Shown here: in pieces, positions 4,957-52,800 of the stretch
Layout: every line of letters begins with the position of its first letter
How positions within the stretch are numbered: position 1 is the stretch's first letter
Assembly (NCBI GenBank): GCA_905178155.1
Contig: CAJINV010000016.1
Location: 1,331,386-1,395,385, forward strand
Reading direction: 5' to 3'
Length of the DNA: 64,000 bases
From: Amoebophrya sp. A120
Lineage: Eukaryota; Protista; Dinoflagellata
Notes under the pieces: model-generated
Databases searched by the model: none
What the model was told of the DNA's origin: nothing
Seen by the model: only the letters and a program-made list of their open reading frames with translations
Program-made: the position numbers and the translations under genes

Positions 4957-7900
4957 CTATGCCAGCAAGGCTTGCACTTCCGTGTCCTCCATGAGATCGA
5001 TGTTGCACAAGTCGTAACTTGGGCTCTGCGGATGCAAACGCACCACGTACATCTCGGTCACTTTCACATTGTCGTAGTTTTTCTCCAAAATGTATCGATA
5101 AATGTTCAATTGGTTGCGGTAAATCTGCTTTTTCACCTGCTTCGTCCGTTTCCAATCGATAAGAATGACTTCTTGCTTCTTATTCGCTGTGGTAATGGAA
5201 CCAACACTGTCTGATGTTGTTGCAACGCTGTCCCTTGGCTCTTTCTCACTGGACGTAGTGCTTGGCTCCTCGTCTGCAGCGGGAGGACTCACAGTGTCGG
5301 TTGCATTCCCATTTTGCGCTGCAACAGAGGGGCGTTTTGTTGAGCTTGGCTCCTGATCTTGCTGCTCCTCTTCTGTCGTGTCGAAGAAATCTTCTGGCCG
5401 TGGTGTTGCCTCGCCTTTGGCAGTGGGAGTTGTTTTGTTTTTACCAGCGGCATCTAGAACTTGCTGCTGCTCAGATGGATCCTCGGTCTCCGAGGCAGAA
5501 GCGGTCGATCCCTTCCTTCGCGACGTTGTCGCCGCTCCCGAACCGGCCTTTGCCTTGCTAGTTGCTCTACTTGTTTTCGACGCAGTTGTAACAGCAGACG
5601 AGTTCATCTTCTTCGTCACCGCCGGCACGACCGGTTGACTCGCTTGACCAACAAACCGATCCGCAATGACGACAAAATCAATGGTCCCCGCGATGCCCAG
5701 GTCCGCGTCGAAGATTCTCCATTCGGTGCGGTAGGGTTTCCACTTCCGCGTCTCCATCACGTCTTTGAGGAAAGCGAGGAAGTAGGTGCGCTCGATAAAC
5801 TCCTCCGGCATTTTGGAGAGGTGCTGTGGTTGCTGAGTGGATGAGGAGGATGATGATGCCGGCTTTACTGCTGCTGTCATCGTGTTCATCTCTTTCGCGC
5901 CCTGCAGCTCCGATGCTTGCCCACCTCTCTCCTTTGGTTCAAAGCCGGCAACGCTAGTGTCAAATCTGGGCTGTGCGCTAGTCGGAGGAGGTTGGAAACC
6001 GAATGATCCGTTCGTGGAAGTAGAAGCTGGCTCCGGGGGTGCTTCAAACCCCATAGGATACGCCGACGAGGAGCCACTGCTGCTTCCAAAAGGCGGCACT
6101 GCTGCAAAAGTCCCGAACGCCTGCGTCCCGAATGAGGAGGGGCGGGAGGAGGCAGACGCAATGGAGGTTGTGACGGAAAAGGGAGTGGAAATGAACTGCG
6201 ACGTCGAGGCTGGAGCAAGCGGCTTCACTGGAACAGGCGAGGGAGCTCCACCCGCAGGTGCTCCTGTATTTGCTACAGCAGCAGGCGAGCAAGACGCTGA
6301 TACTTGTTCCGCTTGTTGTTCCTTCTTCTTCGCACAAGAACTACTCCCTCCTTCCAGCTGAATACTCGTGCTCAGCTGCCGTTGGAGAAATCGTTCAAGA
6401 CAGCTTAGACGGTTTTCGAAATTTTCAACAGAATTTTTTTTTAAGCCCCCGATGGGCATTTCGAACAGCCATAGGCGACAAGGGCCGCGCCTCTAGCTCC
6501 TGCGGAGTCTCAACGCAGCTGGGCCGGCAGCACTTCGCTAGTGCAAATAGTGAGAGCTCGCGGAGTAGGCGGCGCTGGGTTGCGACCTATTATCGCACCT
6601 TTTTCGCGGCGGTGCCTGTGTTCTTTCCGCGTTAGCCTCTTTGCAACTCCTCCGCGCCTTCCCCTTCTGCCTTCTCAGCCGCTGCCATCCGGGCGCCCTC
6701 CGCCCCGCCGGGCAGGTGGTGGACCCATGGCGCCCGGCAGCCAGTGTCTGGGCCGAGGCTCTTTTGTCCACACGTTCACCACCCCAACAAAGCGCCACCG
6801 CTGCCGACATGAGCGATCGGCCAGCCTAGAGCAGGCTAAAACGTCCATGCCATGCAGTCTAGATGTCATGTAGACGGTTTTTGGGGGTCTGGCCCAGATC
6901 GGAGGAAAATCTTGCTCATCTGGCATCATTTTGAGCCCAAAAAGTTGGCATCTTCCAAAAACCGTCTACATCGCATTTAGACTGCATGCTATGGTGGGTT
7001 CAGACGGTCCAAAACGGGGTCCCCGAGGTGGGAACCGTTTTGGATCGGCCAAATCGATCAAGCCGTGCAGATTAAATGCGATGTAGACGGTTTTTCTGTG
7101 GTATTTGCATGGTTTTGCCCACTTTTTCACCGTCTACATCGACCATAGCATGCGGGCTAGATGCATTGTAGACGGTTTTTGGGGCACCTCCAAAATTTGG
7201 CCTCAAGGTCAGGCGGGCCATCTTACGCAGATCTTGGCGCCCCTGTGCAATAGCGAGAGAACAGCTTGCATTGGCTAGCCCAGGCGCGTGCAGCTACTCT
7301 GGGACCCCATACAGCATCGCAGCATGGTGACCGTTTCACACGCTGCCCGTGATCTACTTCGGAGGACTTAAAATTTTTTTTTGTTGCAAAATTTCAAAAC
7401 CGTCTACGGCTACACTTTTTCTTGTGATATCCCTCCTTCCAGCTGAATACTCGTGCTCAGCTGCCGCTGGAGAAAGGAGTCTTCCAAATACCCCTTCCGG
7501 TTCAGAAACAGCTCGATGTCGCGGTGAAGCTCGGTGCCCAGGTCCCTCGCAAAGTCCCAGGTCTTCAGGATTTCCTCTTTGGTCTTCTGGTAGTATTCGT
7601 AACTCGGGTCGTTCGCCCAACGGTCGGACTTGATGATCTGTGATGTGGAGTTTGTATTGCGAGATCGCTCTACAGAACAAAATTTGTCATGCTCGTGCAC
7701 GCGGCCATCGCCATGAAATGCGAAAGGCAGCACCTGTTCTTCACCAAACTGTATGCAAATGTAGCAGACTTTTTAATACCTTGCTCGCAATCATGTTTCC
7801 GTTAAACCCCGGCCCCGAGTCGCAACAGGCTGTGACGGACCGGAATCCGCCACCAGCTTTACCCGTAAGAGCTGCATTTCCACCATTTGCCAACGAGTAC

Positions 7901-8340
7901 TTATGTTCCTTCTCGTCGAAGTTTAGCAATTTGTCCCGTTCGTGGGCGTTTTTTACCGCCAAATAGTTGTCCGACGCATCGTCGAAGACTAATTCCTTGG
8001 ATTTTTCCAACTCTGCTATCGGCAACACCGCGAAACCATTCCTGTTCGCTAGTTTCTCGAGTGCTTGCTCGAAGTTTTGTTTGGATTTTTCCAGATCAGG
8101 GGAAAAATCGTGCTGATTATTCGGCTTCACTTGCTGCAGAAAAGCCTCGATGCACGCTATGCGGTTGATCAGGTCGAAGCTGAAATCGGCATCTTGTTCC
8201 GTTGGATCGGCAGCTAGGGTAGTGTAATTCGTGTTGCAGAAACTCCCGCTCTGTGGAAGCGCACCAGAGGAAGAAGACCGGGATTTGGTGCTATTGCGCT
8301 GTTGCGCGACAAGCAAACTTTGCAGCATGGAAGAGGACAT
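4957..8340 (-). CDS. PD-(D/E)XK superfamily nuclease with long low-complexity insertions; introns 7638-7779 (GT-AG) and ~6345-7429 (TIR element plus one repeat copy)
   Basis: Motifs FDEKEHKY..SVT, GTELHRDIE, PYRTEWRIFDADLGIAGTIDFV, ILIDWKRTK and QLNIYRYILEKNY; exons join in frame (ASK|IIKSD; EGG|SSSCA). Confidence 0.75.
6391..7429. mobile_element. ~1-kb GC-rich TIR element acting as an intron; left end degenerate; flanked by a 46-bp direct repeat
   Basis: Right end ...TTTTTCTTGTGATA; inverted arms share TAGACGGTTTT(C)GAAATTTT; repeat tccctccttccagctgaatactcgtgctcagctgccgYtggagaaa at 6345-6390 and 7430-7475. Confidence 0.85.
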
Positions 8341-9049
8341 GTCGGCCAAGACCTTGAAAATGCCGTCTCACTTTACATGGAAGCCGCTAATCAAATGGAA
8401 CGAATACAAGGAGGAGGATAATCACAGTTATACATCTCTGACTCTCACATATTTTAATTTTTTTCTGGTGACACCTCCTGAAAAAATAGTCACGCAGCGG
8501 ATGAAGCGGCGCGCCGTATAAGTAGTTGTGAGCATACCAGGGGACGACTTTGTGGTCCTGCTTTCGAATTTTTGAAAGAAAATGGACGAAAAGGATAATG
8601 AGCCAAGGCGAACCTACCATGAATCTCAGCATGGACAAAGAACTAAAAGAACTGATTCATCAGATTCTGTTTCTTACTCACTTTTGCATTGCTCGAACTG
8701 TTGACGTATTGTCGGAAGCACCGTGAAGATACAAACATAAGGATAAAGGAAATCCGCTCTCAGAACGGCTTCCTGGTGGGGTAATAGGGGGGCCTCTGAC
8801 GGATGCATATTGCCCTGAACCTCTCTGCCATTCACCTCCACAGCGACGTCTTCTGGAGGTTTAAGTTACAACCCGCACTTCTCACGTCGCCGAACAGACA
8901 ATCACCACCACGACCAAAACCTGCAAGGCTTCCTCGACGGCCAAAACTGCCACCTGCCTTCTTGCTCTTCCACCAGGCCGAGCAGAGTAAGTAAGTCGAC
9001 TGTCGCCAATGCATCGCCAGCCTCATTCCACCATCGGCCTTCGTCTTTT

Positions 9050-11737: not shown

Positions 11738-11775
11738 AGTTATGCTGGGTGCATAAATTGGACTATGACCCGTAT

Positions 11776-12037
11776 TATCAAATGTAAAAATGTCTGGGTC
11801 TGGACGATTGCAATTTGTCATGCTAAATCTGCAGCATGCAAAAATCTGTGTTGCATGATTACCAAAAGTCGTCCAGTTTTGACCAACTCGGGAGGGAGTT
11901 TCTCATGCAGAATAGGCATGAGAAAGGTCCCGCAGAATCTGTCATGCTAGGTCCTGCATTCCAAACCTCACGGGTCATGGAAAAGCAGCATGACAAGTCG
12001 CGCATTCTTCCAGACCCAGACATTTTTGCATTTGATA
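11776..12037. mobile_element. TIR element, family A (TATCAAATGYAAAAATGTCTGGGTCTGG), TSD cgtat
   Basis: ~28-bp TIR and perfect 5-bp direct repeat. Confidence 0.92.
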
Positions 12038-12708: not shown

Positions 12709-15700
12709 TTACGAAGATTCGACAGGAAAAGCAGCGACCTGCTCTCGTGCTTCTTCTTCATCTTGCTGTTTCTTCTCTGCTCCCATTCCCAAGGAGGTTT
12801 TTAACATCATTTTCGCACTTTCCGAATCTGCGTCGATTTGTTTTTCCACCTTCTCCAAAACTTTCTCCACCGCCTGGCAGCAGCCTTCCAGCATGCCACA
12901 CCATTCAGTCGCCGCCTCGGAAGACGCAAACCAGATGCGGCGGTTGTGAATCTTCTGCTGAACAACATTGATGTCCGAAGCACTACTACCAGAATTCGCC
13001 GTCGAGGCTCCCGAGTCTTTGCTGGTATGAACTGCAAAAGTATCGCACTCGTATAAATGCATTACAAATTTTCTCAGCATGAGAAATAAAATTTGTAATG
13101 TAGATTAACATTAAAAAAAAGATCTGTAATGCAAGACTTGCATTTATACGAGTACGAGACTTTTGCACTGCATAGCTGGCAGTCTTGGACAACTTTCCTG
13201 TCTCCGCTGATTTATTACCCATTGCTGGCAAAACCACCGTGCTATTCAAATCGTGGATCGGCCGCGGTTGGATCGGAAACACTTCCGGCGCACCGATCAC
13301 GTTCACCGTGCCGTCCCGACGCCAGTTTTTGAAAATATGGAAGTGTCAGAATCGAAATTGACAAAATCGAAAAACTTGTGATGCATAAAATCGATACCAG
13401 TTGGAGCCTCAGTTTCCAAGTGGCGCATGACAAATCTTGGAAGCACTAATAAAATCCAGTCTGTCATGCTGTTTGGGCAAAGAAGACTGCTCCTGTCATG
13501 GTACTCTGGCAGCGCAACGCCTTCCCTTAAACAGGCATGCCACCGGTCTCATTTGCTTGCTCCCCAACACAGGCCATACGTGCTCTACATTTCACGCATT
13601 ACAAATTTTTCGATTTTGTCAATTTCGATCCTGACAGTTCCATAGAAAAAAACGCCCTCGTACTCCTTCACCTGCTCCCTCGAGATACCGTCTGGGAGAG
13701 GCATGGAATTCAGAACCTGATCGCGATATTAGGAGAGAGTTTATTTTTCAGCTCGTTCAACAGCAACGCAAATTCCCGGCATAGAAACGACGCACAAAAT
13801 GCATCACAAATTTCAGTTTCACCAACTCGTCGGAGCATAAAAACTACTGGGGTCATCCTGAATTACAGAAACTTTTGTCATGCAGAAGCCGCACGATGCT
13901 GCTGAAAGCAAAACGCATTCCGAGATGAAGTACCTGATGCACGATCTGGTCCGCCACCTGTGTGTTGGTCAAATGCGCCGAGCACCGGCCAACCGTAATC
14001 GTGAACCCCAAGGCGTACAGCTTGACTTTGCTTGTAGAAGCCTTCGAACTAGCTGAAAGAGATTGACCAGTGGCACCACTGCGTCTTTCCCTTTCCTTCG
14101 CAGCATCTGCCACCGCGACCGGATTTCTGCTCACCGAGGCGACGTCTTCGGAGTCATCAATCAAACGAGGATTGTTCTTGGAACCGGTACCCGATGAACT
14201 ACCACTCCCCTTGATCGTACTCCTTGAAGAGGAAGACCGGCTTTTCCGGCTCCCAGACCCGGACCCGGACTGCGACAAAGTTCCCTTGTTATCTTCCCCG
14301 CAGTCCTCGGCAAATTCGGACACGTGCATCACCACCTCCCCCGCGTCGAAGACCTGCATTGCGTTGACCTTCGTGTTGTCTTGTGGTTGTGTCAAGGGCG
14401 TGCCCATCAGGCCCGCCTTGATTGATTGCGCGGTGGGGGATCTTTTCGTGTTTGGGTTCGGCGAGTTGTTGTCGGTGAGTTTGATTTTCCCGATGGTCTC
14501 GGAATTCCACCACTTTTCGGAATAAAGCAACACCGCCTTCCCGCAGCAACTCATCCAGATCGGCTGCGAGGCCATTTTCTGGCGGATGTTGTCGAGCGGG
14601 AGGTATTTCGGGTAGGACCAATAAGGGCCAAACTTCACGTCGGTCAAGACCTTCTTCGGCGGCACGGCGAGGATCACCTGCTTGCACGTGTAGCTGTGCG
14701 TCGGCGCGACCAGCTCTCCGGCTGCGTTCGTTAAAGCCGTGGTGGCTTTCTTCGTGTTGGTGATCCGGTCGAGGAGAGAAGTCGTCGTGATGAAGACTCT
14801 GGATTTTTCCGGGTCGCAATGTTGAGTGCTTGAAGAAGATGGAGATGCGGTTGTACCTTTTTTGTCCTTGTTTTCGACGTGGTCGCCTAACATGTTGTCC
14901 AACTTAATATCAGTTGACGACGAGGAGGCAGAAGTACTAGACGATGCGCGACCATCATCCTTCTCCTTGCTCATCTTCATCATCACATTCTCCTCCACAC
15001 AGCTCAGTAATTGCTCGCCCATCTTGATTTCCACTTTCCCCTCAATCGCTTTCCGTAATTTCTTCACTAATCGCTCCATACCGCCTTCCACCCGTTCCTC
15101 CCCCGTGAACGACCCCGGTTGGGGGACGGTCTTCACCTGAAACTCATCCAACAGCCCCTTGATCCGGTGCTGTTCCTCCGGCCAGACCCAGGTCGCGCCC
15201 ATATCCAGATTCGGGGCGGATAGAAAAGACTTGCATCTGCCGCCGAGGCTACTCGGGTTCTGCTCAATCAGGAGGATTTTCAACGCAGGCTTTGGCTTAA
15301 CAGCGTTTGCGCTAGCGTCGTCACCACCTGCTACTTCTTTGTCCTGGCTGTTTCTCTGCACCAGGCGATACGCCGACAACAGCCCGGAGACCCCGCCGCC
15401 CACGATGACAATGTCGTAGTCGTTGGCGGCTTTCTTCAGATTCGATTCCTTTTGAAAAGCTTCCGTGTCGAAGAAGAATTTCTCTTCCTTCTTGAACAAA
15501 TCGTAGCTGTATTTCAACTTCTTCTGCTGCAGCTGCTGCAGTTGAAGCAAATACGCGGACTGCTTCTTCTGCTGCGCTATCAAATGCAAATATGTCTGGG
15601 TCTGGAAGATGAGAAGACTTGTCATGCACATTTGGCATGGCCCATGATGTCTGTAATGTATGCGGTAGCATCACTGATTTCCTGAGGGCCTCCTGATGCC

Positions 15701-18700
15701 CATACTGCATGAGAAATACCCCCTCCGCGTAGCAAAACAGTCGACTTCTCTTGCTGCTTACGCAATACAGATGTTTTTAGAATTCAAGGACAGCATGACA
15801 AGTTGCATCTATCCAGACCCAGACATATTTGCATTTGATATGCGCGGAAGCCAGAGCTCGTTCCTTCTCAAAATGCGCCTTTTCGCGCAGTTTCGACGCG
15901 AAGGAGCTGATATGCATTGCAAAAGTATCGTACTAGTATGGATTGCAATACAAATTTCCTCAGCATGGGAAATAAAATTTGTAATGCGGATTTAACTTGA
16001 GAAAGAAATTTGTAATGCATGAATGGGGTTACTACGAGTACGATACTTTTGCACAGGATAGCTGACGGAAGAGGTGGCGGACAACGCTTCTTGCGGCGTT
16101 CCTGCACCGGAGGACGACGAGAGCTTCGCCTTTATGGAAGCGTCAGGTTTGAAATCGTCAAAGTTGAAATGATTTGCCATGCATAAAATGCGATTACAAA
16201 AAGTGACTCTATTGCCGAGGACGCAAGGGAAGCAGATTATAGTCCTGGTAAGGGTCTTCAAAAGTTGGACTGCTAACTAGCATGACAGAAGGCAGCTCTT
16301 TTGCCCTAAACCGCATGACAGACTCCTTTCCAGGACCGAGAAGATTTGTCATGCACCGACTACAAACTGTAGGTCTGACTGGTATCCGTTTTATGCATGG
16401 CAAACTATTTCAACTTTGACGATTTTAAACCTGACGCTTCCATAGCCTTCGCATTAACATTATTCTGCTCTTTGAGTTGATGACGTTTTCCCTCCTTGAT
16501 ATGAACTGCAAAAGTATCGCACTAGTATAAATCGCATGACAAATTAGCTCAGCATGACAAATGGAATTTGTCATGCTGTTTTGCCTTGGGATGAAGATTT
16601 GTAATGCATGACTGCGATTACTACGAGTACGATACTTTTGCACAGGATACTTGATCTCTTTCGACAAAACCGCACTCGACGCGGAGGCGGAGGACCCCAC
16701 GCTGCTGCGACCGGCACTGATGCTAGCGCTGTTATCAAGTGTAAAAATGTCTGGGTCTGGAAGGATGTAACCTGTGATGCGCATTTCAGAACACACAAAA
16801 ATCTCTCATGCATAGCTAGCAAAAGCTGCCCACTTTCTGTCACCAAAATGGGGGATTTGTCATGCGGGTCCGGCATTGCGGAAGCTTCTCGAAACTTGTG
16901 ATGCTAGAGCTTCATGCCAGACCTTCTGTGTCATGCAGAAACAGCATGACTCTTCCAGACCCAGACATTTTTACATTTGATAGCTGTGGCCGCTGTGCAA
17001 GAGACCTGCGGCTTTCGCTGCTTTGTGAAAGGCACGCATATCAAGCACATCCGCGCCGGGTGATGCTGGCATGCTGGGCGGAAAGAAAGGCGAGACTGGC
17101 GTAGAGCTACCCGTAGTACCCGCTGGGGAAGCAGCAGCAGTAGCGGAACCCGAGGATCCACCCGCGGTCGCGGATAGCGTGCTTGCATACGACATCGTCA
17201 GCGCCACCTGGTGCTGGAACAACGCCGCGTGATATCAAATGCAAAAATGTCTGGGTCCGGAAGAATGCAACTTGTGATGCTGCATTTGGATTCCAAAAAA
17301 AATTGTATTGCGTGAGTAGCAAATGCAAAGGGAATGTAATTTTTGCTACGCGGATCAGGCATTTGTCATGCGAAATAGGCTTCAAGAACCCCTCGAAAAA
17401 TCTGTGATGCTACGGCGTGCATCACAGACATCATGGCTCATGCAAAACGTGCATGACAAGTCTGAGAATCTCCCAGACCCAGACATTTTTGCATTTGATA
17501 CGTGAACCGCCAAATCCATTTGCTCCTGAGAAGGCAGCATCATGTGCAAAAGTATCGTACTCGTATTGCAAATAATGCATTACAAATCTTTTCACTATGT
17601 CAAATCCGCATTACAAATTTTATTTCTCATGCTGAGGAAATTTGTAATGCATTCATACGAGTACGATACTTTTGCAGTTCATAGGCAGCATCATGTGGTG
17701 AGGCACTGCAGCTCCTGGGGTCGCGGTTTGTTGTTCTAGAATCGGCGGCAAAGGCAAAGGCAAAGGCGGGGAAATCGGCGGAAAGGTCATCCCAAGTTGG
17801 CCGGGAGTTGTAGTAGTTGCCGCGGCAGCAGCAGCAGCAGTAGCTGCTGCATAATACTGGTCCTCGAAAGAAATGTGTTTTGTCGACGATGAAGATGCAG
17901 CAGTTTTTCCCAGCGCCAATTTTTGCTGCGTGCTGCTACCCTTTGCCTTTCTTGTTTTCCCGCCAGCAACCGGTGACGCGAAGGAGCCAGCGGAGCTGTG
18001 AGGAGACGTGGTGGTTGACGGGTAGTATGCAGCTCCACCAGAAGACATAGTCGTGGAGAACGTCGTTGTATCCGGTCGAGCGGTACTCCTAGTCGTTATG
18101 AGAGTGCACAACTCCCCCTCCCCCTCATTTGTCTGGCATGCACAGCAATACAAGCGTCGGCAAGAATGCAGGTTTTGCATGACAAATTCACCCAGGATTG
18201 TAGTGCTGTTTGAGGTTCCAGAACTTGTCATGCATAAAGTCCCAAGGGGCAAAGAATGGATTTGGAATTTTGCATTACAAATGAGGGGGAGGGGGAGTTG
18301 TGTAGTCTCATAGTCGTGTCCTCACCCGCAGTAGTCGACGGGGTCTGGTCATGATCCGAAGAAGAAGACAGGTCCAGACCCGGCGGAGCGCTGACTTTCT
18401 TATGGGAAGTAGTAGACCCCGTAGGGGTCGTGGTCTTCCGAAACCGAAACGTCGTCACTGCTTGTTTCGTTTCGCCGCTCTGCTCCTCCAGCTCAAAGAA
18501 CTTTTGAGACGAACTACTCGACGTAGAACCTCCTTTGTAATTATTCTTTCCAGCAACAACTACCGGCTCTTGTTGTTCCGCCGTTTCTTTATTACCCTTT
18601 CCCTTCTGCGCGGCAAGCAGGGCGGTTGCGAGTTGATCCATTAAGTGTTTCTCATGCGTCGTGGTTCGGGCTAGTTCCGAACTCGTCCCACGAGAAATTT

Positions 18701-20882: not shown

Positions 20883-23800
20883 TTACTTCCCGCTTCCTTC
20901 GGGAGAGGATTTACTGTCCATGATACTCTGCTGCATCATTTTCAGGGGCGTCGCAAACAGTTTTGCGCACGAGTCGGCGAAGGTTTTCAGGGCGGGTTCA
21001 TCAACCAACTCGTTCGGAACAAGGTCCATCTCCAGGTATCTCTCGAACTTCTGAAAGTGCTCGAACGGGCCCCAGGAGGCTGATTTTTGTGTAGCGGTAT
21101 TGAATGAAGATCATCTTGAGGAAGAAAAAATAGACAGTGAGTGTCGACGTCTCCCGTACTGGCAAAAATTTCAACTTCCCACACCTCTAGTCGACAAATT
21201 TCATTCATCAATAAGCCTCAGAAACAAATAATCTAAAACAAACTTCATACCTTCCGGGTTCTTCAATTTCCTCAACTCCGCGTTGAAGAAATCCTTCGAT
21301 TTTCCCATCGCCTTCCAAATCTTGAATCGCGCCTCGTGCTCCTTAATTGTGCTGACCTTCATTCCCTCAATTTTCGACACAATCGCCGCCAGCTCCTTTT
21401 TCGCATCATCCACCGAGTTGATTTTCACATCGTTCTTCCCGCTTATTATGCCGAAAACTTCCGACAGGATGGAGAACAGCTCCTGCCTTAAGACCTCCAA
21501 ATCTAATTCCACTTTGCTCAATTCCGGATTGGACAGGTACTTGCTGACGAAATGTGTCAAGCAGGGCAACACCTCGGACAGCAAATAACTGTTCCGACTC
21601 GGCCTGGTTTGAAACGGTATCGCCTCGAGCTTTTCGTACTCCCCAGTGTCCGCACAAGTGGTTACAAAATTTTCTTCCATCTTCCTCTCCAAATTCGCCA
21701 ACTTCTGCAACAACTTTGCGCAGGTGATCGCTTTTTGCCCCTGCCGACAGAACGCTTGGTAAGAGAGCGAAAACGTGTGCGGGTCTTGCGGAGCGTATTT
21801 CTGGAGTTTCAACGCGGTGTCTTGCGCCTCCTTTTGCAGGTCGAACTTCTCGAGGTATTCGGTTCCGTTCGGATCGACGGACTTCGCGACTGTGCAGGGA
21901 AGGACGGTCGCTGCCTCGTGCTGTTTCGACTGCTCCTTCTCAACTTCAGCCTGATAAAGTTTATCATTATTTCGCTTTTCGTTGAAAATTTTTCGTGTGT
22001 GAAGGGACAAATGTGCACTCTTGGAGATAGCAATGTATGTTTCGTTCCAACATGGAAGATCGTTGCACTTTGTGCTTGGAAAAACAACGAATACAAATTC
22101 CTTCACCTTCTTCCCTTGTCTTTTCGCTGCGTGCTTCAGTTTCTTTTTCTCCGCAGCGGTTAATTCCCTGTTTGGATCCTCCGCCTCGGCACTACCAGCT
22201 TCGCCCTTCCCGCCCCCAACATTCGTTCCGGTGCTCCCCTTCTTGCCAATGTCTAGCAGCAAAACGCAGAGCTGGATCATGTCCTTCGCGGCTCGGCGGT
22301 AGAATTTGTGGGAAAACAATTTGTCCTGCAGTTGGAGCATGGAGACGTAGGTTGTCAAGCCGTTTTTCCTTATGCAGTAGTTGTGGAAGTCAAACTGGTC
22401 GTCGTTCATATCTTGGAAATGGCTAATGGTCGCCTTCATGTAGCGCAACGCCCGCCCGTAGATCTTTTGTCTTACGTAGGAGCGCGAAACCTCGGCTTCA
22501 TACCTGAGTTCGATGGTTGGGACAGGAAAATGTAAGTGTGAAAGGGAATCATGGCAACTCACGGCTCTCATGTTGCGTCAGATGTTGTATGTTACGAAGC
22601 AAAAAAAAAAATTCTGAAGGCGTAAAACTAAAATCAAAAATCCTCGCAGGAGTACCACATGCACTGCATGTCGTGCAGGTTTGTCGCTGCCTCGCTTGGT
22701 TTTTCTGTGGCACCCTCCCCCGCTGCGGCGCTGTCTCTTGAGAAAAGAATCATCGTTGGCTGCGCTTTCTTGCAGTCGTCGATTCGCAGCATCGCCTTCA
22801 CGGCACGGGTGTTGAGATACCTGTTGAACGTTTTGTATTGCATCACAAAGATCAGCTGTCGCTTCTTCTTCGGGCTGATACTGGATTCATCGCGCGATGA
22901 TGATGAAGCTGCATGTACTATTCGTGTGCTGTTTATCCTTATACGTTGCGCGTGCTGAGGATCTATTGGCGCATCACAACTATTTTTATTCTCGTTGAGT
23001 ACCTGTCCGCCAAGTCCAGTTCCCTAGCGGTGTTGTAGAATTCCGCGGCCTTCCACAAATCGCCGCTGTCCTTCAAAATCTTGCCCTTAATCATCATCAA
23101 TTCCGGGTGCGTTGGCGCCATTTCGATGGCCTTCTCGATAAATTGAAGCGCTTTTCCAAAGTCGCCGAGGATGTTGAAATGCTCCGCGATTAATTGGTAG
23201 AGGAAGAGGAGGGACGTGGGGGTGGTGCTGTCGACAGAATCGGAACCGTCGAAAGAGTAGTACTTCTCGAGTGGGTCTGTGGTTGATGTCGTTTTTGCGA
23301 TTACATCAAAGAACAGCTGCATGCTGGAATTCTGAGAGAGGAAGTAGTTGTGCATGGCACGACATCTATGCTTGTTCCAATTCATGGGCAACATCATGCC
23401 AAATCTGCAACACAAAAAAGCGTAAATATCAAATTCATACCTAGCAGGCTCAGCAGTGCTTCCTCGATGAGACTCCATCTGCTTGAGTCGTAGAAGTAAA
23501 AGGGCTTCAGCAGTCGGAAAAGCGATGGCAATCCCTTCTGCAGCCGTGGGCGAAGGAATTTCTGTTTAGTATTGAGATGAATATATTTCTTTTGGTACGT
23601 GGCAAGACAAACTTGGCGTAGCCAGCACTCATTGCATTGCAAACTGAAAAATTCATTCCCAGGTAGTACAAGAATCCACGCACTACTATACCTTCAGCTT
23701 TTCCTGGAAAAACGTTCCGCTGAGGAAGAACAGTCCTATTCTTTCCGCGGATTCCGACTTTTTCTGGTCTCTTAACTCGCCGAGGTACTCCAGTAGCTCC

Positions 23801-25718
23801 TTCTGTTTCTCCCCACTCAGTTCTCCGCCGACGGGAAAGCTCAAGTATGGCCTTTTCTGCTTCATCATTCGCTTCCCGATTCTTTTGTAACACGCTTTCT
23901 GCAAAAAGCTATTCTTTTCCGGGCAGAGCCAGCCGAAGACCGGGGACCCTGCTGGGTGCATTTCTGGCGGAAATGCCTGTGCGTTGCTCGTCGGGACTGT
24001 GCCAAACGGGATGGTTGAGAAGTCGATGTCTTTTACGTAGTTGCAGCTACTACTTGAGGATTTTTCGCATTTCTTAGAATCTTTGTCCTTCGGTGTCTCT
24101 TCCCCGGCGGTGGTTGAGCCCTCAGAATCCTCCTTCTTCGCTGCCTCAACTGCTTTTGCCGGCTCAACATCGCAGCACCCCTTTTGGCAAGCGGATGTTG
24201 GCTCCTCCTTTTTGGCTACTGGGGAGATGATTATTGGTGCTGGTAGTGGTGGCCAGAACTCGCGAAATCGCGGGTCAGTGGCGATCAGGCAGAGGATGTA
24301 GATGTGATTCTCTGGGTTTTTCATATACAGCTCCTTGTAAAGCGAATTCGCTTCCTGCATTTTGCCACAGTACCTGATGTTTTTGGGATGATCGTATAGT
24401 GATATCCACTTCAACACTTTCACTTTGTCATGCACCAAAAGATACCCGAACCGCAACGCACTTTCTTTGTCATGCTCATCCATACTGCTAACGGAAAAAG
24501 AAAAACTCGTTCGATCAGTGAAGAAGATGAAATGTCTATACATCAGAATCCTCCCCCTAATTTCCCGCAATTTCGTCTTATCCATGATTTTCTGTTCCTG
24601 GTCCGCTAACATCTCCAATAGTTCCTTCCACTGCCCTGACTGCTCTAACAGTGCCGCTTTGTACAGGACAAACTCCGATCGCTCCACCTTAGAGAAATCG
24701 TCGGCGAGCTTGGACTGATCGCATAAAGCTTCCAAGGCGCCGGCTGCGTTTCCGTTCATGTGGGCTGTCACTGCGTAGCCCACGATATTGATGTTGTTGG
24801 GCTTCATCTCTGTTTTTTGTGATTGTTTCATCGAGTTTGCGGCTTTGAACTTTTACTTTATCATGCGCTTCCACACGTCGAAGTCGAACGGTTGATGCGC
24901 TGTCTCTGCGCCTCGTCAACATGCATGAATAGAACAAGGTCCGACTCTAAACTCAGCATTGCAAATTGAGGAAGTTTAAGCAATACCCATAAGCTTTTTC
25001 CTGGTATCCACGGCGCCAGGAAATTCCCTCTCGTGAAGTTGAAGCAACGCCAGATCCCGAATAATCTGCAGGTTGTGCGGCTCGAATTTCAGGGCGCTTT
25101 CTGTGTTGCATTTGCATTTCAGTCCTGTAGTTCTAGTTCTTGGAAGTTTCTTTCGGTTCATTGTCTCTACGACCATGTGGTCGGCTAGCGGCTAGGACCT
25201 AGAAAGTTTACCACGCTAAACCTAAGGTTACATTTGTTTTATTGACATTGAAAGTTTACCACGCTAACACTTTACGACTGTCATGCCAAATCATGCAGCA
25301 GCGCAACACAGTCATCATGTTCTATACTGTAGCATTTTATTGCTTCGACGTAATTTTTGTCGTGCCTGTGCAGCAACCCGTATACGTGCCAACATACGTA
25401 GCTTTTTGTGTGCAGGCTTAATCCTAATTTCACCAGCTCGTAAGCCTCGTCTGTCTTCCCCGTGTATCGGAGCGTCAGCCCTTTCAGACCTGTGGTTTTT
25501 GGTGTAAGACTTGCGATTGTGAAGCTCAGCGACGAGGTGGAAGAGGAACTACGCATCGGCATGAAGTCAACATTGAGCGATCAAATTCATGCAAAAATTA
25601 TACAAAGTGTCTCCCCATGTTTCGAGTGCTTCTTCAGGATTTGATCGGACGCTCGCAGTGCTTTCTTGTACTGCTTTGTCTCGATTAGCTCCGCGATTGA
25701 TCGGGTTGAGACGTCCAT
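20883..25718 (-). CDS. NAA15: N-alpha-acetyltransferase NatA auxiliary subunit (NAA15/NAT1), TPR protein; GT-AG introns where traced
   Basis: ETKQYKKAL..HGETL, KGLTL..EAYELVKLGL..KSYVCWHVYGLL..EAIKCY, NLQIIRDLALLQ, ARELDLADRYLNT, NLHDMQCMWY, DDQFDFHNYCIRK: hallmark NAA15 segments in the correct order. Not every intron boundary was traced. Confidence 0.93.
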
Positions 25719-35900: not shown

Positions 35901-38900
35901 CTCTGGAGATGCCGCGGCCTTGCAACATAACACCGGAAAAGACGGCAATACTGCCGCGCCGCGGATCTTCTTCGCAGTTTCGCAGAAATTTTGAGCCTTT
36001 GCAGCCTTCACGCAAAGGCATCTTTTTCACAGGGTCGGACTCGTTCGCCACGGCGCAACGGCCCGCGCCCGAGATCGGTCGCATCAATCTCGGACGGATT
36101 TGCCATCGGTTCCCTTACTCTCGGGTCGCTGTGGCGATCGTTATGAACTTGATCCGCGCGGCAATTCTTGCCGAATATATGAGACGAATGAGGGGCATCC
36201 TGAAAAGCTGAAAAAAAACCAGCAAGGGCACTGCGAAACCCGCAAAAAAGCAACACCAGAAAAAGCCGAAACGCGGAAAACCGTGGCGCCATTTCTGCTA
36301 TTGGGGAAAAAATTTCGCGGCTTTTGCATTTTTCTCCTTCAGAAAAAAACCTGAAAGCTTTTGCATTTTTTTCCTTCAGGGAAAAACCTAAAAAAGTTCG
36401 CGCGATTTTCTTCTAGAAAAAACCCAAAAAAGCTGCGCGCGATTTTCTATTACAAAAAAACCAAAAAAGTTGCGCGCGATTTTCTATTACAAAAAAACCC
36501 AAAAAGCTGCGCGCGATTTTCTAAAGGCCAGAAATGTGAAAAATCGCCGGCCTGATCGGCCTCATGCCATCGGGGAAAGGCAGAGAAAATGGCCCGTCTT
36601 CGGTTTTGGTTTTTTTCGAGGGGGGATTCCCGCGCAACTTTTTTGGGTTTCTTTTTTTGTAGTAGAAAATCGCGCGCAACTTTTTTGGTTTTTTTGTAGT
36701 AGAAAATCGCGCGCAGCTTTTTTGGTTTTTTTGTAATAGAAAATCGCGCGAACTTTTTTAGGTTTTTCCCTGAAGGAAAAAAATGCAAAAGCTCTCAGGT
36801 TTTTTCCCCAAAGAAAAAAATGCGAAGGCCTCGGCATTTTTCCTCCCTTTACAGAAATGCGGCACCCGGCAGCGCGTGTGGCTTCGCTTTGGCCTTTTTT
36901 TTTGCCTACTTTCTTGGCCCGGTCCTTTCAATTTTCTTCGCTTCATTCGCGATCTTTTTACTACCGTAGCCCGATTCAGATTCACCATGATTCTGATTCT
37001 CATTCGCGACGTTTCTGATTCTGATTCACAACATGTGGCCTCCACAAGCCAAATAGCTTACAACATGTGGCCTCCACAAGCCAAATAGAGTTTTGCTCTA
37101 CGCAATATCCACAAAGGGCCAGCTGTAATCGGGGCGCTGAAGCTCCTCAACGCTCATCATCGTCGGACTCTGGGTCTTGGGGCCGCGCTCGCGAACTCCG
37201 GCGGCTGCTGCTTCATCCGGCTGCTGGCCGCCGCTCTCGTTGGTGAAGGAGTGCCTAAGTCGTGCCGAGGGAGAGGAGCGGCGCCACACATGGCGCCAGT
37301 GGCTGCGCCAATGAGTTCAGCAGCCCCATTAACTTCATACGTTTCGGCTTTGCCTAGAAGCCGCTGCAACGCCTTCGCCGGCACTTGCATCCAAGCAAGG
37401 CCAACACGGCCCGCGCGGGGGCGCCTGCCTGGTTGTCGGCCGGCGGCCGGTCCGGCTGGCAGAAGCCAGGAAGGGCTCGCGGGCTGAGGCAGGCCCTCGC
37501 CCCAGGTCCAAGACTGCCTTGGATGCCAATCATAGACGCACACACGTGGCAGTCCCCTGGGCTTTGGCGGTAGAAGCGAAGGGAAACTGACTGAAGCAAT
37601 TCTGCTTGCCACCAAACCACCCAAGACCAGCAAGAGACGAGAAAAAACGAAGCCGGGTCCGCCCGTGTCACGCGCGTGACACGGTGGCCCTGTCTGTGAT
37701 CTAGAGAAGCAGGGCAGCATCCCCCTCGCGCCAAGGGGCGCGCCTGCGCGTGCGAAAGCAATGCGCCACGACAATGGGCTGACGAGGCGCCCGGCTGTGG
37801 CCAAGCGGCGCCGGCAGGCGGCCAACCAATGGGAGGCCGGCAGTTGGTTGCTTGCCCTCCCGGGTGAGGCCGGCCGTGCCTGCCGCCCACAAGGGAGGAG
37901 GGCCAGAATAGCAGTCCGCCGCGCAGAAAGCAAGGCCGGGCCCGTGCCTGGCTGCCACAGAAACAAAGAAAGGAACAGCGGCAAGGCCAGCACACTGCCT
38001 TCTTACAGAGGCAGCCCCGCTGAAGGTCCCAACCTGTCAGAGCAGGCACTGAACCGCCGGGGCGGCGGAAATGCAGGGGCAGACGGGGCGCCTGCAATGC
38101 TTCGAACCGGGCTGCGGACAAGACGCCGGCGCGCCTGCGACAAAACGAAAGCGGGCACAGATAGGCCCGACACAAGTGTGGCGCTGCGGCACTTCGCGTC
38201 CATATATGCAAGGGGAGGCCGGCAAAGGGATAAGGGGCAAACGGGCGGCGCCCGAACGTCAACGCCAGCCGCGGCCCGCATTGCGCGCCACAAAAATGCG
38301 CCAAATACGGCAGCGGGCGCCGCGTCTCGAGGAAGCTGCTTTGCGATGGCCCGGCTCGACGCCTTGTGTGCCCCTCTTCCCTGCAACCACAATGAGGGGC
38401 GCCGGCGTTGTGGGAATTGCCTCCGCCTTACATTCCCGAGGCCATTTCTGAGACATTTTTAAAGATGGCGGGATCACGGGCGTGGCAGTGCATAAGAAGC
38501 GCGTGCCCGGGGGTTAGCTCGTGGATTTCCGCATGGTCTTTCACCTGATGTTGTCATGCGGAGGAAAGTAATCGCACAATGTTGATCAGAGCGTGATCGA
38601 GTTTGACTTTCAACATCAAGAAGTGAGACCTGGAAAAACAAAGGTCTGTCATGCAGCTACTCAGCGCGACCAGTTGTCATGTTGATGTTTAGCATAAGTA
38701 GCAGAAGCTGCACTCTAATCTACCTGAAAAGCGCTCGCAATGACCCCTCGTTCGCTCGCCACCACGATGAATTCCTCGTCCATCCAGTAGAAACACGGCC
38801 GGATCTATCCACAAGGAACTGACCATCCCCATCCAATTTGTCATGCGCCACATGTATGAAGTCCTGTGTTTGTCATGCCTAAAATGCACGAGGATGCTTG

Positions 38901-41900: not shown

Positions 41901-44900
41901 CGTCAACTTCGAGGAGTAGACCGGGTGCTTCGGAAAACAGGAAACCGAGGGCCTGATGAGATGACGATGAATTTGATGTATCTATTTATATTTTTGCATT
42001 TCAACGAGCATTCTGACTTCAAGCATGCTTACTACACAACACTGCAAGAGAAATCATGCACCCGCATCTTCAATTCCAAATCTTACCTCCGATTCTGAGC
42101 AATTCACACTCACGTCCGCCCCGAAGTTCCCCGCGAAACACATCTCCAGCAAACAGGTCAAAAACCCACCGTCGGAAATGTCGTGGACGGAAAGAATTTT
42201 GTCAAACACCTTGTCCGTCTGGAAAATTTCAAAAACCTTCTTCAACTTCTCCAAATCCACATCGCACGCCCCGCAAACGTTCCAGTCGTAGACCTGCGCG
42301 AGCGCCGTCCCGGCCAACTTCCACTTCATTTCCCCCTTCACCAAAGGGGAACTGGAATCGATTCTCTCCATCCCGAGATCCACAAAGAGAATCCGTGACC
42401 CCGCCTTCTTGAACTCCGGCGTAATCTTTCTCCGCACGTCCGGCACCTTCGCGTAGCAGGTTAAGACCACCTCCCCCGGGCACTTCACGACGCCGTTGGT
42501 TTTCGTTCGCGTCGCCATGGATAACGAGTCCTTCCCGCCGTCGATTGCGAGGCCCAGGTACTCGATAGAGCTGCACAGGGCCTCACACACGTCGTACATT
42601 CGCGCCCCTTCGCCGGGAAACTTCGCCGGCCACATCCAATTCCCACTTGCGCGGACGTTGTCTAACCCACCTTCAATCTGTACGCCGATGAGATTCAAAA
42701 CTGCCTCCGCAACAGTGAGTTTCGCCTGCTTCTGGAGGTCGGAAATGGTCCCGGAAAGACCTTTTAGCGGCTGCTCCCCGATCGAAACCGCAGCGCCGTC
42801 CGTCGTTAACGGGGAATGCGCCACGACCGCACAATCCGCGAGAGGTGTGTATGGCGTTCTCAACTGTTACATAATTCTCAACTATTACATAAATTTGTGA
42901 TGCAAGAATGGCAAAAGTGAAAGGGGTGACCTTGCGCGTCTTGCATGACAGATTCGGCCCAGATTCTCAGCCTGTTTGGCTCTTCGAGAATTTGATGTCA
43001 TGCAAAGCAGCTTGATCGTGTCAATTCTGAGTGTAATTTTGCATGACAAAAAATCGTGTAACAGTTGAGAATGTAACATTTGAGAACGCCATAGTGTGTG
43101 CAGGGGTCCAACGCATTGCTGTTGCGCGACTAAGCCGGTGACGGAGCGGTCGACTTTGTTGGTTAAGAACCTCTTCGACCCGACGGAAATCAAGCGTAAA
43201 ATGCGATCCAACGCCGCTCCGACGGAAGCGGTTGGGGAGGGTTTGACCGTGATGTTTTCACCAGATGAATCCTTCTCCGCCAACTCCGCCGCCAGGGACT
43301 TCGCTGGCACATCCGTCGGCGGCGTGCCGCAGAAGGGGAGCGGGGGTTGCAGACTGTCGATCGGGTAGGGGAATCGCGGTTTGATCCGGTCGGAGACAAA
43401 AGTTTTCTGCGGCATCTTCCCCAAAACCGCTTCTAATGGTAAATCCACGATTTTCTCCTCCCCGTAGTGGACCACGATTTTTCCATCCCCCGTGATTTCC
43501 CCGACACAAGAGAAGGACAATTGCTCCCGTTTACAGATCTTTTCAAACAAATCCAGATTTTTGCTGTCTATCAACAACGCGTCGTTCTCCTGGAATTCCG
43601 CGACCCACAGCTCCAACGCCGTCATGGTGTTGTCGCCGATCAACATTTTGTCCAACTGGATCTTCGCCCCAGCTGGGTACGCGATTTCCTTCAAAACGTT
43701 CCCAGATCCCCCCGCGCCCTGGTCGTGGATGGACAAAATCGGATTTTTCTCCCCCAATTCCAAGCACGCCCGGATCACACACTCGCACTTCCGCGCCATC
43801 TCTGCGTCAGCTCGTTGCACCGCGTTGAAATCCAGCTCGGCTTTGTTGTCGCCCGCCACCATGGAGCTGGCCGCGCCACCGCCAACCCCGATCCGGTACG
43901 CCGGGCCGCCGATTTTGATGATCAGGTTCCCCGGTGCTGGCTCGTGTTTTTTCACGTGCCGGTGGAGCATCCGGCCCAAACCGCCGGAAAACATAATCGG
44001 TTTGATCCACTCGACGCGCTCGGTTGTGGGTTTATTTCCCCCAACATCTTCTTCTGAAGCAGGACTTTCGACGATCGATCCGTAACTCCTGGTAAACCCC
44101 GCAACCAGTGGTTCGCCGAACTTGTTCCCGTAGTCCGATGCGCCATTCGAGGCGGAGACCAAAATGTCCAGCGGTTTCGCCATGTTTTCCGGGTAAAGCG
44201 GCTCGTTTTTCGACGTTTTATCGGAGATTGACAATTCGCTACACTTTTCCAACACTTCCTTTTCCCACACACAACCGGCGTAATTCTCCGTCTTCGGGAG
44301 ATCTAAATTCCCCACACAGTACCCCGCAATCCCCGCTTGCACGTACGCGCCGCAGCCCGTCGAGTGGTTGTCCCGGATCCGCCCGCCTGACCCCGTTTCC
44401 GCACCGGGAAGAGGGGCGATCCCGCAGGGGAAGTTGTGCGTCTCCGCGGTGAGGGTGATGTCTAAATCCTGTTCGGTCAATTTGTAGTATCCAAAGCAAA
44501 TTTCCCGTACGCACCACACAAATCGAAATCAATGCGGTCTCCGCATGACAAAATTTGCCTTCAATCCTACTCAGCATGACAGACAGCGAACTCTAAGTTA
44601 GCCAAGTTGTCATGCAATTTGAAAGAGTACAGGAAATTTGTATTGCATATGTACGGAGCGGAGATCATCCCGTTTCCTCCCAGCGGCAGGGGGATTTTCA
44701 CCTTCGCACCCCGCTGCGCGGAACTGTTGTCTTCGAACGCGATGGTGGAGCAATCGAGTTCCTCGTTTTTTTGCTTCAATTTGTACGCGTTTTTCACGAT
44801 TTGGAACAAAGTTTTCTCCTTCTCAATACCGTCAATCATCATTTTCCCGCCGAAAAACCAATGTCGACTGTGCTCCGAATTCCCCTGCGCCAGGTCGAAG

Positions 44901-49800: not shown

Positions 49801-52800
49801 TTCGAGTTGTCCTCCTCCGCGGCAGAAATTGCAGAATTCGAATTCGCACTCGCAGAGTCACTCCCAGTTGCTTTTATCCTCTTCCGCACAATCTCATCCG
49901 GCCCCTCGTTCATCGCCTGATGGCCCGCGGCAGATTGCAGCCACATCTTGTGCGCCGCTCTTACCCGCTGAATGCTGTTCTTCAAAGTCGCGTGCTGGTC
50001 CCGGTTGTCAAATCTCTGCGGATCCAAGATCGATTCGAGATTCAGCTCCCCACTCAACACCGCTTCCCGCAACCGCCTCCGATGATTGTTGCCCTGCTCC
50101 GCGTGTAGTAAGCGTTTTTGGATTTCCTTTTCCGTCAAAGGGCGGTTGAAGTGGGGGAGTTCCTCGCCGAGCGAGCGAAGGTCGGAAGAGGGGATGCCGT
50201 GTTTTTTGTTCAAAGCGAGGAAATCTTTATCTTGATAGACGTCGCGGAGATTCTCCGCCATGGACAAAGCATCTGGAATGGCTGGCGTGGATTGCGTTTT
50301 CCGGTCCATGTGCGTGATTTCTTCCTTCATCCACGGGTACTTCGACGCGAGTTGCTTGAACAACTCATCGACCGTTTTCGAATTCCGATCAACATGTTCC
50401 TGACGCGCGCCGATAGGAGCTGCTGGAGCAGTACTTCCTTCCGGATCATTTTTGTAGGAACTCAATCCCAAGTTGTACGCGTAGTCGGACAATGAGCCTG
50501 TGCTATCGTAGAGACTCCTGTCTGTTCTTTGCTGTTCCGCCTCCTCCACTGATTTCAACGACGCAGTGGATTCCTGGCTGAACTGAATTTTCTTGAACTT
50601 GATCAAGTCCGGCCGGGCGAGTCGCGGCTCGGAGAAAAGCTGCTCAGACTCGGGATTTGCAAGAACTATTCCTGGGCCGACAGAGAGCTGCCGACGGACG
50701 CGTTCTCTTCTTGGGTAATCCGCTTTGCAGCAGGGTTGGAACCCGACCGTGTTGGTGCAGCACGTGTTTCTGGTGGCCAAGTCGGTGGACTCTGCGCCGT
50801 AGCAGCACTTGCCCGGCTCCACGTAAAACGGGTCATCGAAAGGGGAGATGTAGCCCCAGTCGGTGTAAGAGGTGTAGGCGGTACCTGTGAAAATGGTCAT
50901 TTAGGAGTTTGTGCTGCGCAGAATAGAAAGAAGAAAAAACGAGGCTACGTTTGACGCATGACAAAAGCTCACGCTCAGTACAAAAAACAAAAAGCAACAG
51001 TACGTGTCTCCCGTCCATTCGGGCAGCATTCCGCGCTGGTCATTTTCCACGTTTCCTGTGCACAGCTGGCCATCTCCGCGTCTGTCGGCTTGAAGCAGCA
51101 CTCGTCGAAGCAAGTCGCGAAATTCGACGAAGCGCCTGCACTACCACCAGCAGCTGCCGGCGCCGCCGGCGCTTGTGTCGCCGCCCCGGCGAACAGATTC
51201 GCACCACCGCCAGGGGCTGAACCGGCGGAACTGTCTTCAAAGATGGTCTGGTCAAACCCTGGGATGTCTTTCACCAGGTTTTTCAGCTTGGTAATGTCTT
51301 CCGGCGTCATCCCGGACAGTTTGGCCTCGATCAACTGCTCCAGCGCTTTGTTGTCCGGGCGCTTTATCCTCGCTTCTACGGGCGAGGCCGCCGTCGGCGC
51401 AACGTAAATCGCGTACTGGGGGAGAGAATTTGCCTCTTGCATGGAACCAACATGTTCCTGAAACGTTTCCAGCAGCATCGCAGTCGGCGTGGTTTTCACC
51501 TTGCTGTACAGTTTGAGTGTTTGATCATACGTCCTTTGCGCGATTTCGAACTGCACTAGCAATTTCTGCGCCGTGTGGGAGTTTGTGGATAGTTCTCGTC
51601 TCCTTTTCACGGCCTCCGGGTTGGACAACAGTTGGCTGTTCCTGATTTGTTTTATCCGAGCGATGTTCTCCTTCTCGGCGGGAAGCAATCTTTCGAAGTC
51701 CATTTTGTCATGCTGATCAACCATTTCCATCTGTCGTTTCCACCGCTCGGACAGCTGCCTGGGGTTTGCCAACGTGAAGGAGAGAATCCGAATCTCGTAG
51801 GACTTCACCCCAAACGCCGTGGAAAACGCGTTTTGAAAGCCGGTGATCACGTCCTCATCTCTTAACAAGTCATCCGCGAGCACTGCCCCACCGGCTAACC
51901 CCTGGCCAAACACATTCGCAGTCAAAACGGTCCTCGCCCGGACCACCGGCTGGGTTTGCACTTTCGTCCCATCGATTTCCACCGCGCCACCCGCGCAAAA
52001 CGGGGGCGGGTCGTCCTCAACGAGACAAGCCGGGTCGATGCTGTACCCCTCGCCCGCAGGCTCCTCGGTGTCGTAGTCCATGGTGAGCAACTGCTGGTCG
52101 ACGTACTTTTCGGTCACTGCTCTCGACTCCGCTTTATACACATTCTCTGTCGTCTGCGTCACACCTAAAGTCTCGACCACAGTCCCCATATCCCTGTTCT
52201 GGATCAGCGGGCAGTCCAGCTCCAAGACTTCCCAGAGGTATTTCAAGTAGTCTGGCGCTTTCTGCATCGAAGTGCCGTTGAACCCATCGGGTTCATAGGT
52301 GAACGCGTTCTCCCGGATGCTTGTTGGTAATCCAGTTTTGTACTGACAATACGCATAGACATCCGGATTCGCTTTTATTTGCCCACACGTCGGCGGCATA
52401 CTACCGGAGGCGAGTTCGGGGATCGGGACTAATTGCTCATCCCCGTCCGGGCAGTTGATGTTCACCGCAACGGGGGAGTTCGGATTATCCAGCTGTTCCG
52501 TCACATACCGCTCCGGCATCCCTTTATCTCCCATGCAGTCCCAGTCCGCGCGACCGCAGTTGCAATCACAAACCCCGTCGGACCACTGGCTCGCTTCGCA
52601 CTTCCAGATCCCGACTCTGTCTTCCGTGATTTTCCCAGTTGTCGCGTCCACCGTCGGCCAGAGCCACTGGTAGGCCCGCTGCAATGTTCTGACCTCCATC
52701 ATGGAAGGGGTCGCGGAGTCGGCGGAACCGCCCCGGACAATGATTTTCATCTCAATGTCTGGCGGCACGAGCAACGGGTCGGAGAATCCCGCGTAATTCA

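What the first reader, a model, noticed from the sequence alone, without database searches (positions are those of the whole stretch)
7638..51003. Canonical GT-AG introns look like domesticated introners: TSD ..AGG + TA(T) creates both splice sites
Seen: several GT-AG introns carry the same 5-mer at both ends followed by TA at the donor: 13717-13933 (tcagg-TAC / tcagg), 38545-38723 (tcagg-TAG / aca-tcagg), 22821-23002 (acagg-TAC / acagg), 24374-24541 (tgatg-TAT / aca-tcagg). Many other donors are GTAT (7779 and several in NAA15). Their TIRs are gone. Inference: insertion at an NNAGG target gives G+TAT = GT donor and the second TSD copy supplies AG, letting the spliceosome take over and the TIRs decay. 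This would be a visible route from transposon to conventional intron.
Basis: partly seen in the sequence, partly recalled or inferred. Interest (0 to 1): 0.72.

Follow-up and report, generated by a model that had tools for sequence, protein, structure and literature searches.

The report
Mixed-age introns sharing a transposon motif
The ordinary-looking introns of this parasitic dinoflagellate appear to be a mix of old introns and a few younger ones that may be worn-down transposons made by an already published route, and several share with the genome's transposon-introns a short internal motif that is possibly a splicing signal.

Summary
The window is Amoebophrya sp. A120, known for transposon-derived introns (introners). 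Three of the four flagged GT-AG introns have the 5-mer repeat; 24374-24541 does not. Among 15 GT-AG introns, 3 show it against 1.0 expected (p=0.03), while overall end repeats show no excess (p=0.45). None of the three starts GTAT, and none of the 15 keeps the ATA end, inverted repeats or clear family homology. GTAT is probably the host donor: two GTAT introns sit where relatives' ORFs also break, with GT-compatible codons. Two flagged introns (24374, 38545) are read through in two relatives each, so some may be decayed introners. The proposed NNAGG geometry is published for Polarella class 12 elements. By-product: a GCAW[GCT]ACA motif occurs on the sense strand in 30 of 30 short introners and in 6 of 15 GT-AG introns, and is nearly absent from exons and intergenic DNA; it may be a splicing signal. 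The scan noted non-canonical introners in other genomes before, not this claim.

The parts
13717..13933 (-). GT-AG intron, GTAC..TCAG, 7-nt junction repeat ATCAGGT; one sense and one antisense motif copy
   Evidence: RNA-type contig joint
38545..38723 (-). GT-AG intron in the PurF part of a 3315-aa purine-synthesis fusion gene; GTAG..TCAG, TCAGG repeat, 3 sense CATGACA; position read through in two relatives
   Evidence: joint; ORF and relatives P0031, P0032
22821..23002 (-). NAA15 intron 7 (codon 579, phase 2), GTAC..ACAG, 7-nt repeat ACAGGTA; the AT5.2 gene model has a splice acceptor at the same place
24374..24541 (-). NAA15 intron 4 (codon 220, phase 2), GTAT..TCAG, no 5-mer repeat, 2 sense CATGACA; read through in two relatives
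23562..23691 (-). NAA15 intron 5 (after codon 447), GTAT donor; relatives P0160 and P0162 lose homology at the same codon, followed by Val
23277..23440 (-). NAA15 intron 6 (codon 488, phase 1), GTAT donor; relative P0313 loses homology at the same codon, followed by Gly
24810..24986 (-). NAA15 intron 3 (codon 131, phase 1), GTAT donor; P0313 homology begins within a few codons
20880..25718 (-). NAA15 gene, 1064 aa, ten GT-AG introns and no introner
7638..7779 (-). GT-AG intron, GTAT donor, no repeat, 2 sense motif copies
   Evidence: RNA-type piece ends at 7780
41953..42086 (-). GT-AG intron in the PurL part, GTAA donor, no repeat
   Evidence: ORF continuity
50885..51003 (-). GT-AG intron, GTAC donor, 4-nt repeat GTAC
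   Evidence: joint
24426..24475 (-). two GCATGACA motif copies 42 nt apart in NAA15 intron 4
38552..38654 (-). GCATGACA motif copies in intron 38545-38723
17233..17500 (-). intact introner for comparison: TAT..ATA inverted repeats, 5-bp duplication TCACG, GT-AC in the N|TAT register
30554..30876 (-). intact introner with duplication TGATG (GT-AT in the N|TAT register), the same 5-mer that precedes NAA15 intron 4
54253..54570 (-). intact introner with duplication AGGTT; allows a GT-AG reading in another register (as does 58032-58283)

Best explanation
The GT-AG introns here are likely of mixed age: most follow the host's own splice consensus (GTAY donor, ACAG/TCAG acceptor) and some appear to predate the introner wave, while a few younger ones, best 38545-38723 and 24374-24541, are likely decayed introners. 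Shown: intron borders, 5-bp duplications and TAT..ATA ends of intact introners, the consensus, and the shared motif. Inferred: an element landing in an NNAGG target (38545), or in an NNNNG target whose intronic copy later mutated to CAG (24374: TGAT to TCAG), became a normal intron and lost its hairpin. It would have kept the GCATGACA motif if that motif helps splicing. The introner's TAT end would match the host donor because the host already preferred GTAT, not the reverse.
For: Old class: relatives' exon-like ORFs lose homology exactly at NAA15 codon 447 (P0160 then Val-Leu, P0162 then Val-Phe: GT donor with a pyrimidine at +4) and at codon 488 (P0313 then Gly); both A120 introns start GTAT. 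snRNP27 was not detected in A120 and its loss is associated with +4U donors in yeasts (abstract). Published: about 19% of A120 introns share positions with A25, 98.6% of them canonical. Young class: 38545 is read through by P0031 and P0032, 24374 by P0313 and P0160. Both are followed by exon G, end ACA-TCAG (one change from ATA) and hold 3 and 2 sense CATGACA copies. Register-specific repeat 3 of 15 versus 1.0, p=0.033; all 3 repeat-bearing introns carry the sense motif versus 3 of 12 others, p=0.044. The route is published.
Against: No inverted repeat (p=0.40 gapped), no stable fold (z -1.9 to +1.3, against -1.7 to -12.3 for 12 short introners), and no clear family homology once the motif is masked (p=0.15 versus intergenic, p=0.03 versus exon pieces). 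0 of 3 repeat-bearing introns start GTAT and 0 of 15 end ATA-NNAG. 0 of 33 intact elements have an NNAGG target. All three repeats extend into an exon starting GT, which a 5-bp duplication does not explain. Absence in relatives may be loss: P0313 lacks intron 5, which two other relatives seem to have. The relatives are known only as protein ORFs, without DNA. The p-values near 0.03-0.05 come from about eight tests on 15 introns.
Confidence: 0.45

Rival explanations
1. All the flagged introns are ordinary spliceosomal introns. The repeats are a by-product of the AG|GTAY..WCAG|GT consensus, and the shared motif is a host splicing signal that introners also carry.
For: Repeats of 5 nt or more: 3 versus 3.5 expected; summed length p=0.45. 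7 of 15 downstream exons start GT. No hairpin or clear homology. The AT5.2 gene model has an acceptor at the 22821 position. NAA15 has ten canonical introns and no introner, as reported for conserved genes.
Against: Register-specific excess p=0.033 and co-occurrence with the motif p=0.044. Two introns are read through in two relatives each. Seven antisense motif copies lie in canonical introns against 0.6 expected, which an RNA-only signal does not predict.
Confidence: 0.35
2. One reading: most GT-AG introns here, including those with GTAT donors, are domesticated TAT-type introners inserted at NNAGG targets.
For: 13 of 15 donors are GTAT, GTAC or GTAG and one more is GTAA; the motif is shared with introners; no position was shared with about 45 intron calls in distant metagenome NAA15 loci.
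Against: 6 of 15 downstream exons do not start with G, which the model needs; GTAT introns 5 and 6 appear shared with distant relatives; introner ends are reported to be strain-specific; 12 of 15 lack the repeat.
Confidence: 0.1
3. The younger introns were gained by another route that leaves short repeats, such as duplication of an AGGT site or break repair, and then picked up the motif.
For: All three repeats (6-7 nt) are centred on CAG|GT and extend past the 5-bp register. These routes are recalled, not tested here.
Against: Introner insertion is the dominant source of new introns in this genome; no similarity between these introns and flanking exons was looked for.
Confidence: 0.1

Closest known systems
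Polarella glacialis ILE class 12 (Roy et al., bioRxiv 10.1101/2020.10.14.339549; parts 1-2 of 4 read)
   Same: 5-nt duplication NNAGG supplies the AG; its last G plus the element's first base forms the donor. The paper also reports fading element signatures in older introns and splice-site conversion over time.
   Different: There the donor is GC and the elements are recognisable families; here the flagged introns have no recognisable element left.
Amoebophrya A120 introner elements (Farhat et al. 2021, PMC7789003; sections 11, 12, 16, 36, passages, supplement parts 2-3)
   Same: Same organism; inverted repeats starting TAT, 3-5 nt direct repeats, NT-NN splice sites; 15% of canonical introns carry direct and inverted repeats.
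   Different: In the parts read, the paper does not discuss hairpin-less canonical introns as relics or an internal motif; figures were not visible.
Fungal introner-like elements decaying into regular introns (Collemare et al. 2013, PMC3609843; abstract)
   Same: Idea that mobile introns degenerate until indistinguishable from regular introns.
   Different: Fungal elements are reported to lack target duplications and inverted repeats (PMC9860276, passages).
Introners that co-opt both splice sites (Gozashti et al. 2022 PMC9860276, passages; 2025 PMC12130899, supplement file 8, 22 of 58 A120 rows)
   Same: Many A120 families are listed as TIR DNA elements that 'co-opt both' sites; the within-versus-between intron test used here is the same in kind.
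   Different: Those are young, repeated copies.

Membership tests
A120-type introner (for the four flagged introns) | 5-bp target-site duplication in the NNNN|G register | tested here: inconclusive
   Present in 3 of 4 flagged and 3 of 15 overall versus 1.0 expected, p=0.033; overlaps the splice consensus
A120-type introner (for the four flagged introns) | Terminal inverted repeats, TAT..ATA | tested here: not met
   TAT in 1 of 4, ATA in 0 of 4; gapped end-pairing scores 8-18 versus 22-66 in introners
A120-type introner (for the four flagged introns) | Sequence similarity to other copies (family) | tested here: not met
   Against 30 window elements, with the motif masked, p=0.15 versus intergenic pieces; genome-wide copies could not be searched
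A120-type introner (for the four flagged introns) | Stable hairpin fold | tested here: not met
   z between -1.5 and +0.8 for the four
A120-type introner (for the four flagged introns) | Position absent from orthologues | tested here: inconclusive
   38545 and 24374 read through in two relatives each, from protein ORFs only; 22821 leans shared with AT5.2; 13717 untested
A120-type introner (for the four flagged introns) | Internal GCAW[GCT]ACA motif (found here; not a published criterion) | tested here: met
   All four carry at least one sense copy
Major-spliceosome GT-AG intron | GT and AG ends, removal restores the reading frame | tested here: met
Major-spliceosome GT-AG intron | Branch point and lariat removal by the spliceosome | not testable with these tools
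   No lariat data; A120 snRNA alignments are figures

The most novel reading that the evidence does not exclude
GCATGACA-like motifs are an RNA-level splicing signal (branch site or protein-bound enhancer) common to unrelated introner families and to normal introns in A120. They would license removal of non-canonical introners in an organism with no detected U1 snRNA, filter which way an element may insert, and survive after an introner loses its hairpin and becomes a GT-AG intron, leaving a traceable transposon-to-intron series.
Probability: 0.25. Interest if true: 0.7.

Novelty: new member of a known kind. Interest (0 to 1): 0.38.

Why it matters
The route from transposon to normal intron through an NNAGG duplication is already described, so confirming it in A120 would add an example. 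The shared, strand-biased motif matters more: how A120 removes its roughly 65% non-canonical introns is stated as open, and the motif gives a concrete target for lariat mapping and protein pull-down. It was not found in the listings of two searches or in the parts of PMC7789003 read; its figures and subscription papers were not seen.

Tried and rejected
No whole genome was held, so no genome-wide test. Metagenome NAA15 scan: the best 80 of 430 loci were mostly intronless or intron-poor; about 45 intron calls, some doubtful, matched none of the ten A120 positions; biased, so little weight. An introner-end pattern in viral contigs gave 0 hits; P0031 in viral contigs gave no relative; P0032 in prokaryote genomes gave only bacterial PurF. 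Runs X9 and X10 covered only introner-like stretches, so they say nothing on intron presence. No listed holder is on record as RNA; X3, X4 and X6 are RNA by guess, though they skip introns. Rfam: no match. Better survival of sense than antisense motif copies after insertion: 23 of 31 versus 19 of 32, p=0.29, not supported. The motif as a classical branch point is doubtful: copies lie 9-186 nt from the acceptor. The AT5.2 model's 13-residue gap ending at intron 7 is ambiguous: it is an Augustus prediction and a nearby insertion could give the same gap. Human NAA15 intron positions were only recalled and not used. Huff et al. 2016 was not held. Two putative UTR introns were dropped, and still include them (n=17); neither held the motif.
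Full report
Identity and setting. An exon of the NAA15 gene matches a 1064-aa protein labelled Amoebophrya sp. A120 at 100%, the length of my spliced model. All genes I modelled lie on the minus strand. The window holds about 33 elements with TAT..ATA-type inverted repeats and 5-bp target duplications (two have imprecise ends). RNA-type contigs skip them exactly, and removing 13 of them plus two GT-AG introns gives one 3315-aa purine-synthesis ORF. These are the introners of Farhat et al. (PMC7789003). If the donor is the last base of the duplication plus TAT, the splice sites are NT-NN, as in that paper's Table S4.

The observation. Three of the four flagged introns have the 5-mer repeat; 24374-24541 does not. 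I found 17 candidate GT-AG introns by eye and spliced alignment and dropped two UTR candidates that RNA-type contigs read through, leaving 15; introns in unmodelled genes may be missed. Donors are GTAT 8, GTAC 4, other 3, acceptors are ACAG 8 and TCAG 7, and 7 downstream exons start GT. Permuting ends among introns gives 3 register-specific repeats against 1.0 (p=0.033), but no excess of repeats of 5 nt or more (3 versus 3.5) or of summed length (48 versus 47.5). The signal is weak and sits on the splice consensus.

Relic tests. No intron ends in ATA before the last four bases, none of the three repeat-bearing introns starts GTAT (8 of the other 12 do, p=0.08), and end pairing is at background in the gapped test (p=0.40; ungapped p=0.045). 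Folding is unremarkable. Similarity to the 30 window elements is raised (p=0.0001) but falls to p=0.15 against intergenic pieces and p=0.03 against exon pieces once one motif is masked. No intact element sits in an NNAGG target (0 of 33); two allow GT-AG in another register.

Age of the positions. No relative's DNA was obtained, but exon-like ORFs of relatives are informative. P0160 and P0162 lose homology exactly after FxEKLK, the site of NAA15 intron 5, and continue Val-Leu and Val-Phe, which fits a GT donor with a pyrimidine at +4. P0313 loses homology at codon 488, intron 6, and continues with Gly, which fits G|GT; it begins near intron 3. Introns 3, 5 and 6 all start GTAT in A120, so GTAT is likely the old host donor. 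Loss of snRNP27, undetected in A120, is linked to +4U donors in yeasts (PMC10581693, abstract); applying this to A120 is inference. In contrast, P0313 and P0160 read through the 24374 site, and P0031 and P0032 read through the 38545 site. P0313 also lacks intron 5, so loss in relatives is possible. The AT5.2 model lacks 13 residues ending at the 22821 acceptor, which leans towards a shared intron but is ambiguous. Distant metagenome loci shared no position (biased sample).

A shared motif. GCAW[GCT]ACA occurs 73 times sense and 33 antisense in 30 short introners (6.7 kb), 10 and 7 times in GT-AG introns (shuffles 0.5 and 0.6), 4 and 3 in 28.7 kb of exon, and 1 and 1 in about 10 kb of intergenic DNA. 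All 30 have a sense copy and 11 have no antisense copy (p=0.001; sign test 19:5, p=0.007). The three families seen in both orientations carry the motif on both strands. CATGACA in GT-AG introns is 8 sense to 1 antisense (p=0.04). All four flagged introns carry a sense copy; overall 6 of 15 do. Against a required signal: 9 of 15 lack a strict sense copy, a spliced 3.86-kb element has none, all modelled genes share one strand so strand and transcription are confounded, and sense copies are not significantly better kept (p=0.29). The motif could instead be a transposase-binding site, and I first noticed it by eye.

Reading. The GT-AG set is likely mixed. Old introns show that GTAY..WCAG is the host consensus, which introner ends resemble. 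A few younger introns are plausible decayed introners: 38545 from a TCAGG target, and 24374 from a TGATG target whose intronic copy changed to TCAG (an intact GT-AT element with that same duplication lies at 30554-30876). I put this at 0.45, wholly ordinary introns at 0.35, the broad claim at 0.1 and other gain routes at 0.1.

What is known. Roy et al. (bioRxiv 10.1101/2020.10.14.339549, parts 1-2 read) describe the NNAGG geometry, fading signatures in older introns and boundary conversion. Farhat et al. report direct and inverted repeats in 15% of A120 canonical introns and shared positions for about 19% of introns. Gozashti et al. list A120 families that co-opt both sites. Fungal decay of such elements is in PMC3609843 (abstract), and PMC11282704 reviews the field (parts 1-2 of 5). 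The proposed route is thus not new, and these introns are not shown members of the introner class. The motif was not found in searches; figures of PMC7789003 and preprint supplements could not be seen and may bear on that.

Noticed in passing
window 34640-38495: A 3.86-kb GC-rich element with short inverted ends and a GCTTC duplication splits the PurF exon and is skipped in three RNA-type runs. It is multi-copy in the DNA run (depth about 200-300 versus 43) and lacks the motif.
   Followed up: partly
window 31618-33149: A 1.5-kb element with a CATTC duplication in the PurD part; its removal restores the frame. It looks like a short introner with a GC-rich insert.
   Followed up: partly
window 27800-45733: One 3315-aa ORF fusing PurL, PurN, PurF, PurD and PurM (domain names from sequence likeness); the PurF part is closest to Bacteroidota proteins apart from two relatives.
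   Followed up: partly
L002:2-1018: An Amoebophrya-like NAA15 fragment (56% identity) has 8 in-frame TGA codons and no TCA codon, several in columns with Ala or Ser in relatives; possible UGA recoding other than Trp. P0004 starts just after one such column.
   Followed up: partly
window 39614-39762: The bin holding this 149-nt element has summed contig depth about 44,000 versus 43 for unique DNA in run X1, pointing to a very abundant family.
   Followed up: no
window 6340-7470: An insertion of about 1.1 kb in the first gene is flanked by a duplication of about 38 nt rather than 5 nt.
   Followed up: no
the GT-AG introns, 7638-51003: They are T-rich at the 5' end and A-rich at the 3' end, with no polypyrimidine tract.
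   Followed up: partly
window 25742-25770: A pyrimidine-rich AG just upstream of NAA15, not cis-spliced in the contig seen; possibly a spliced-leader acceptor.
   Followed up: no
window 11776-11862: Run X9, which does not cover the exons at 88% likeness, holds reads of a related introner family with other flanks.
   Followed up: no
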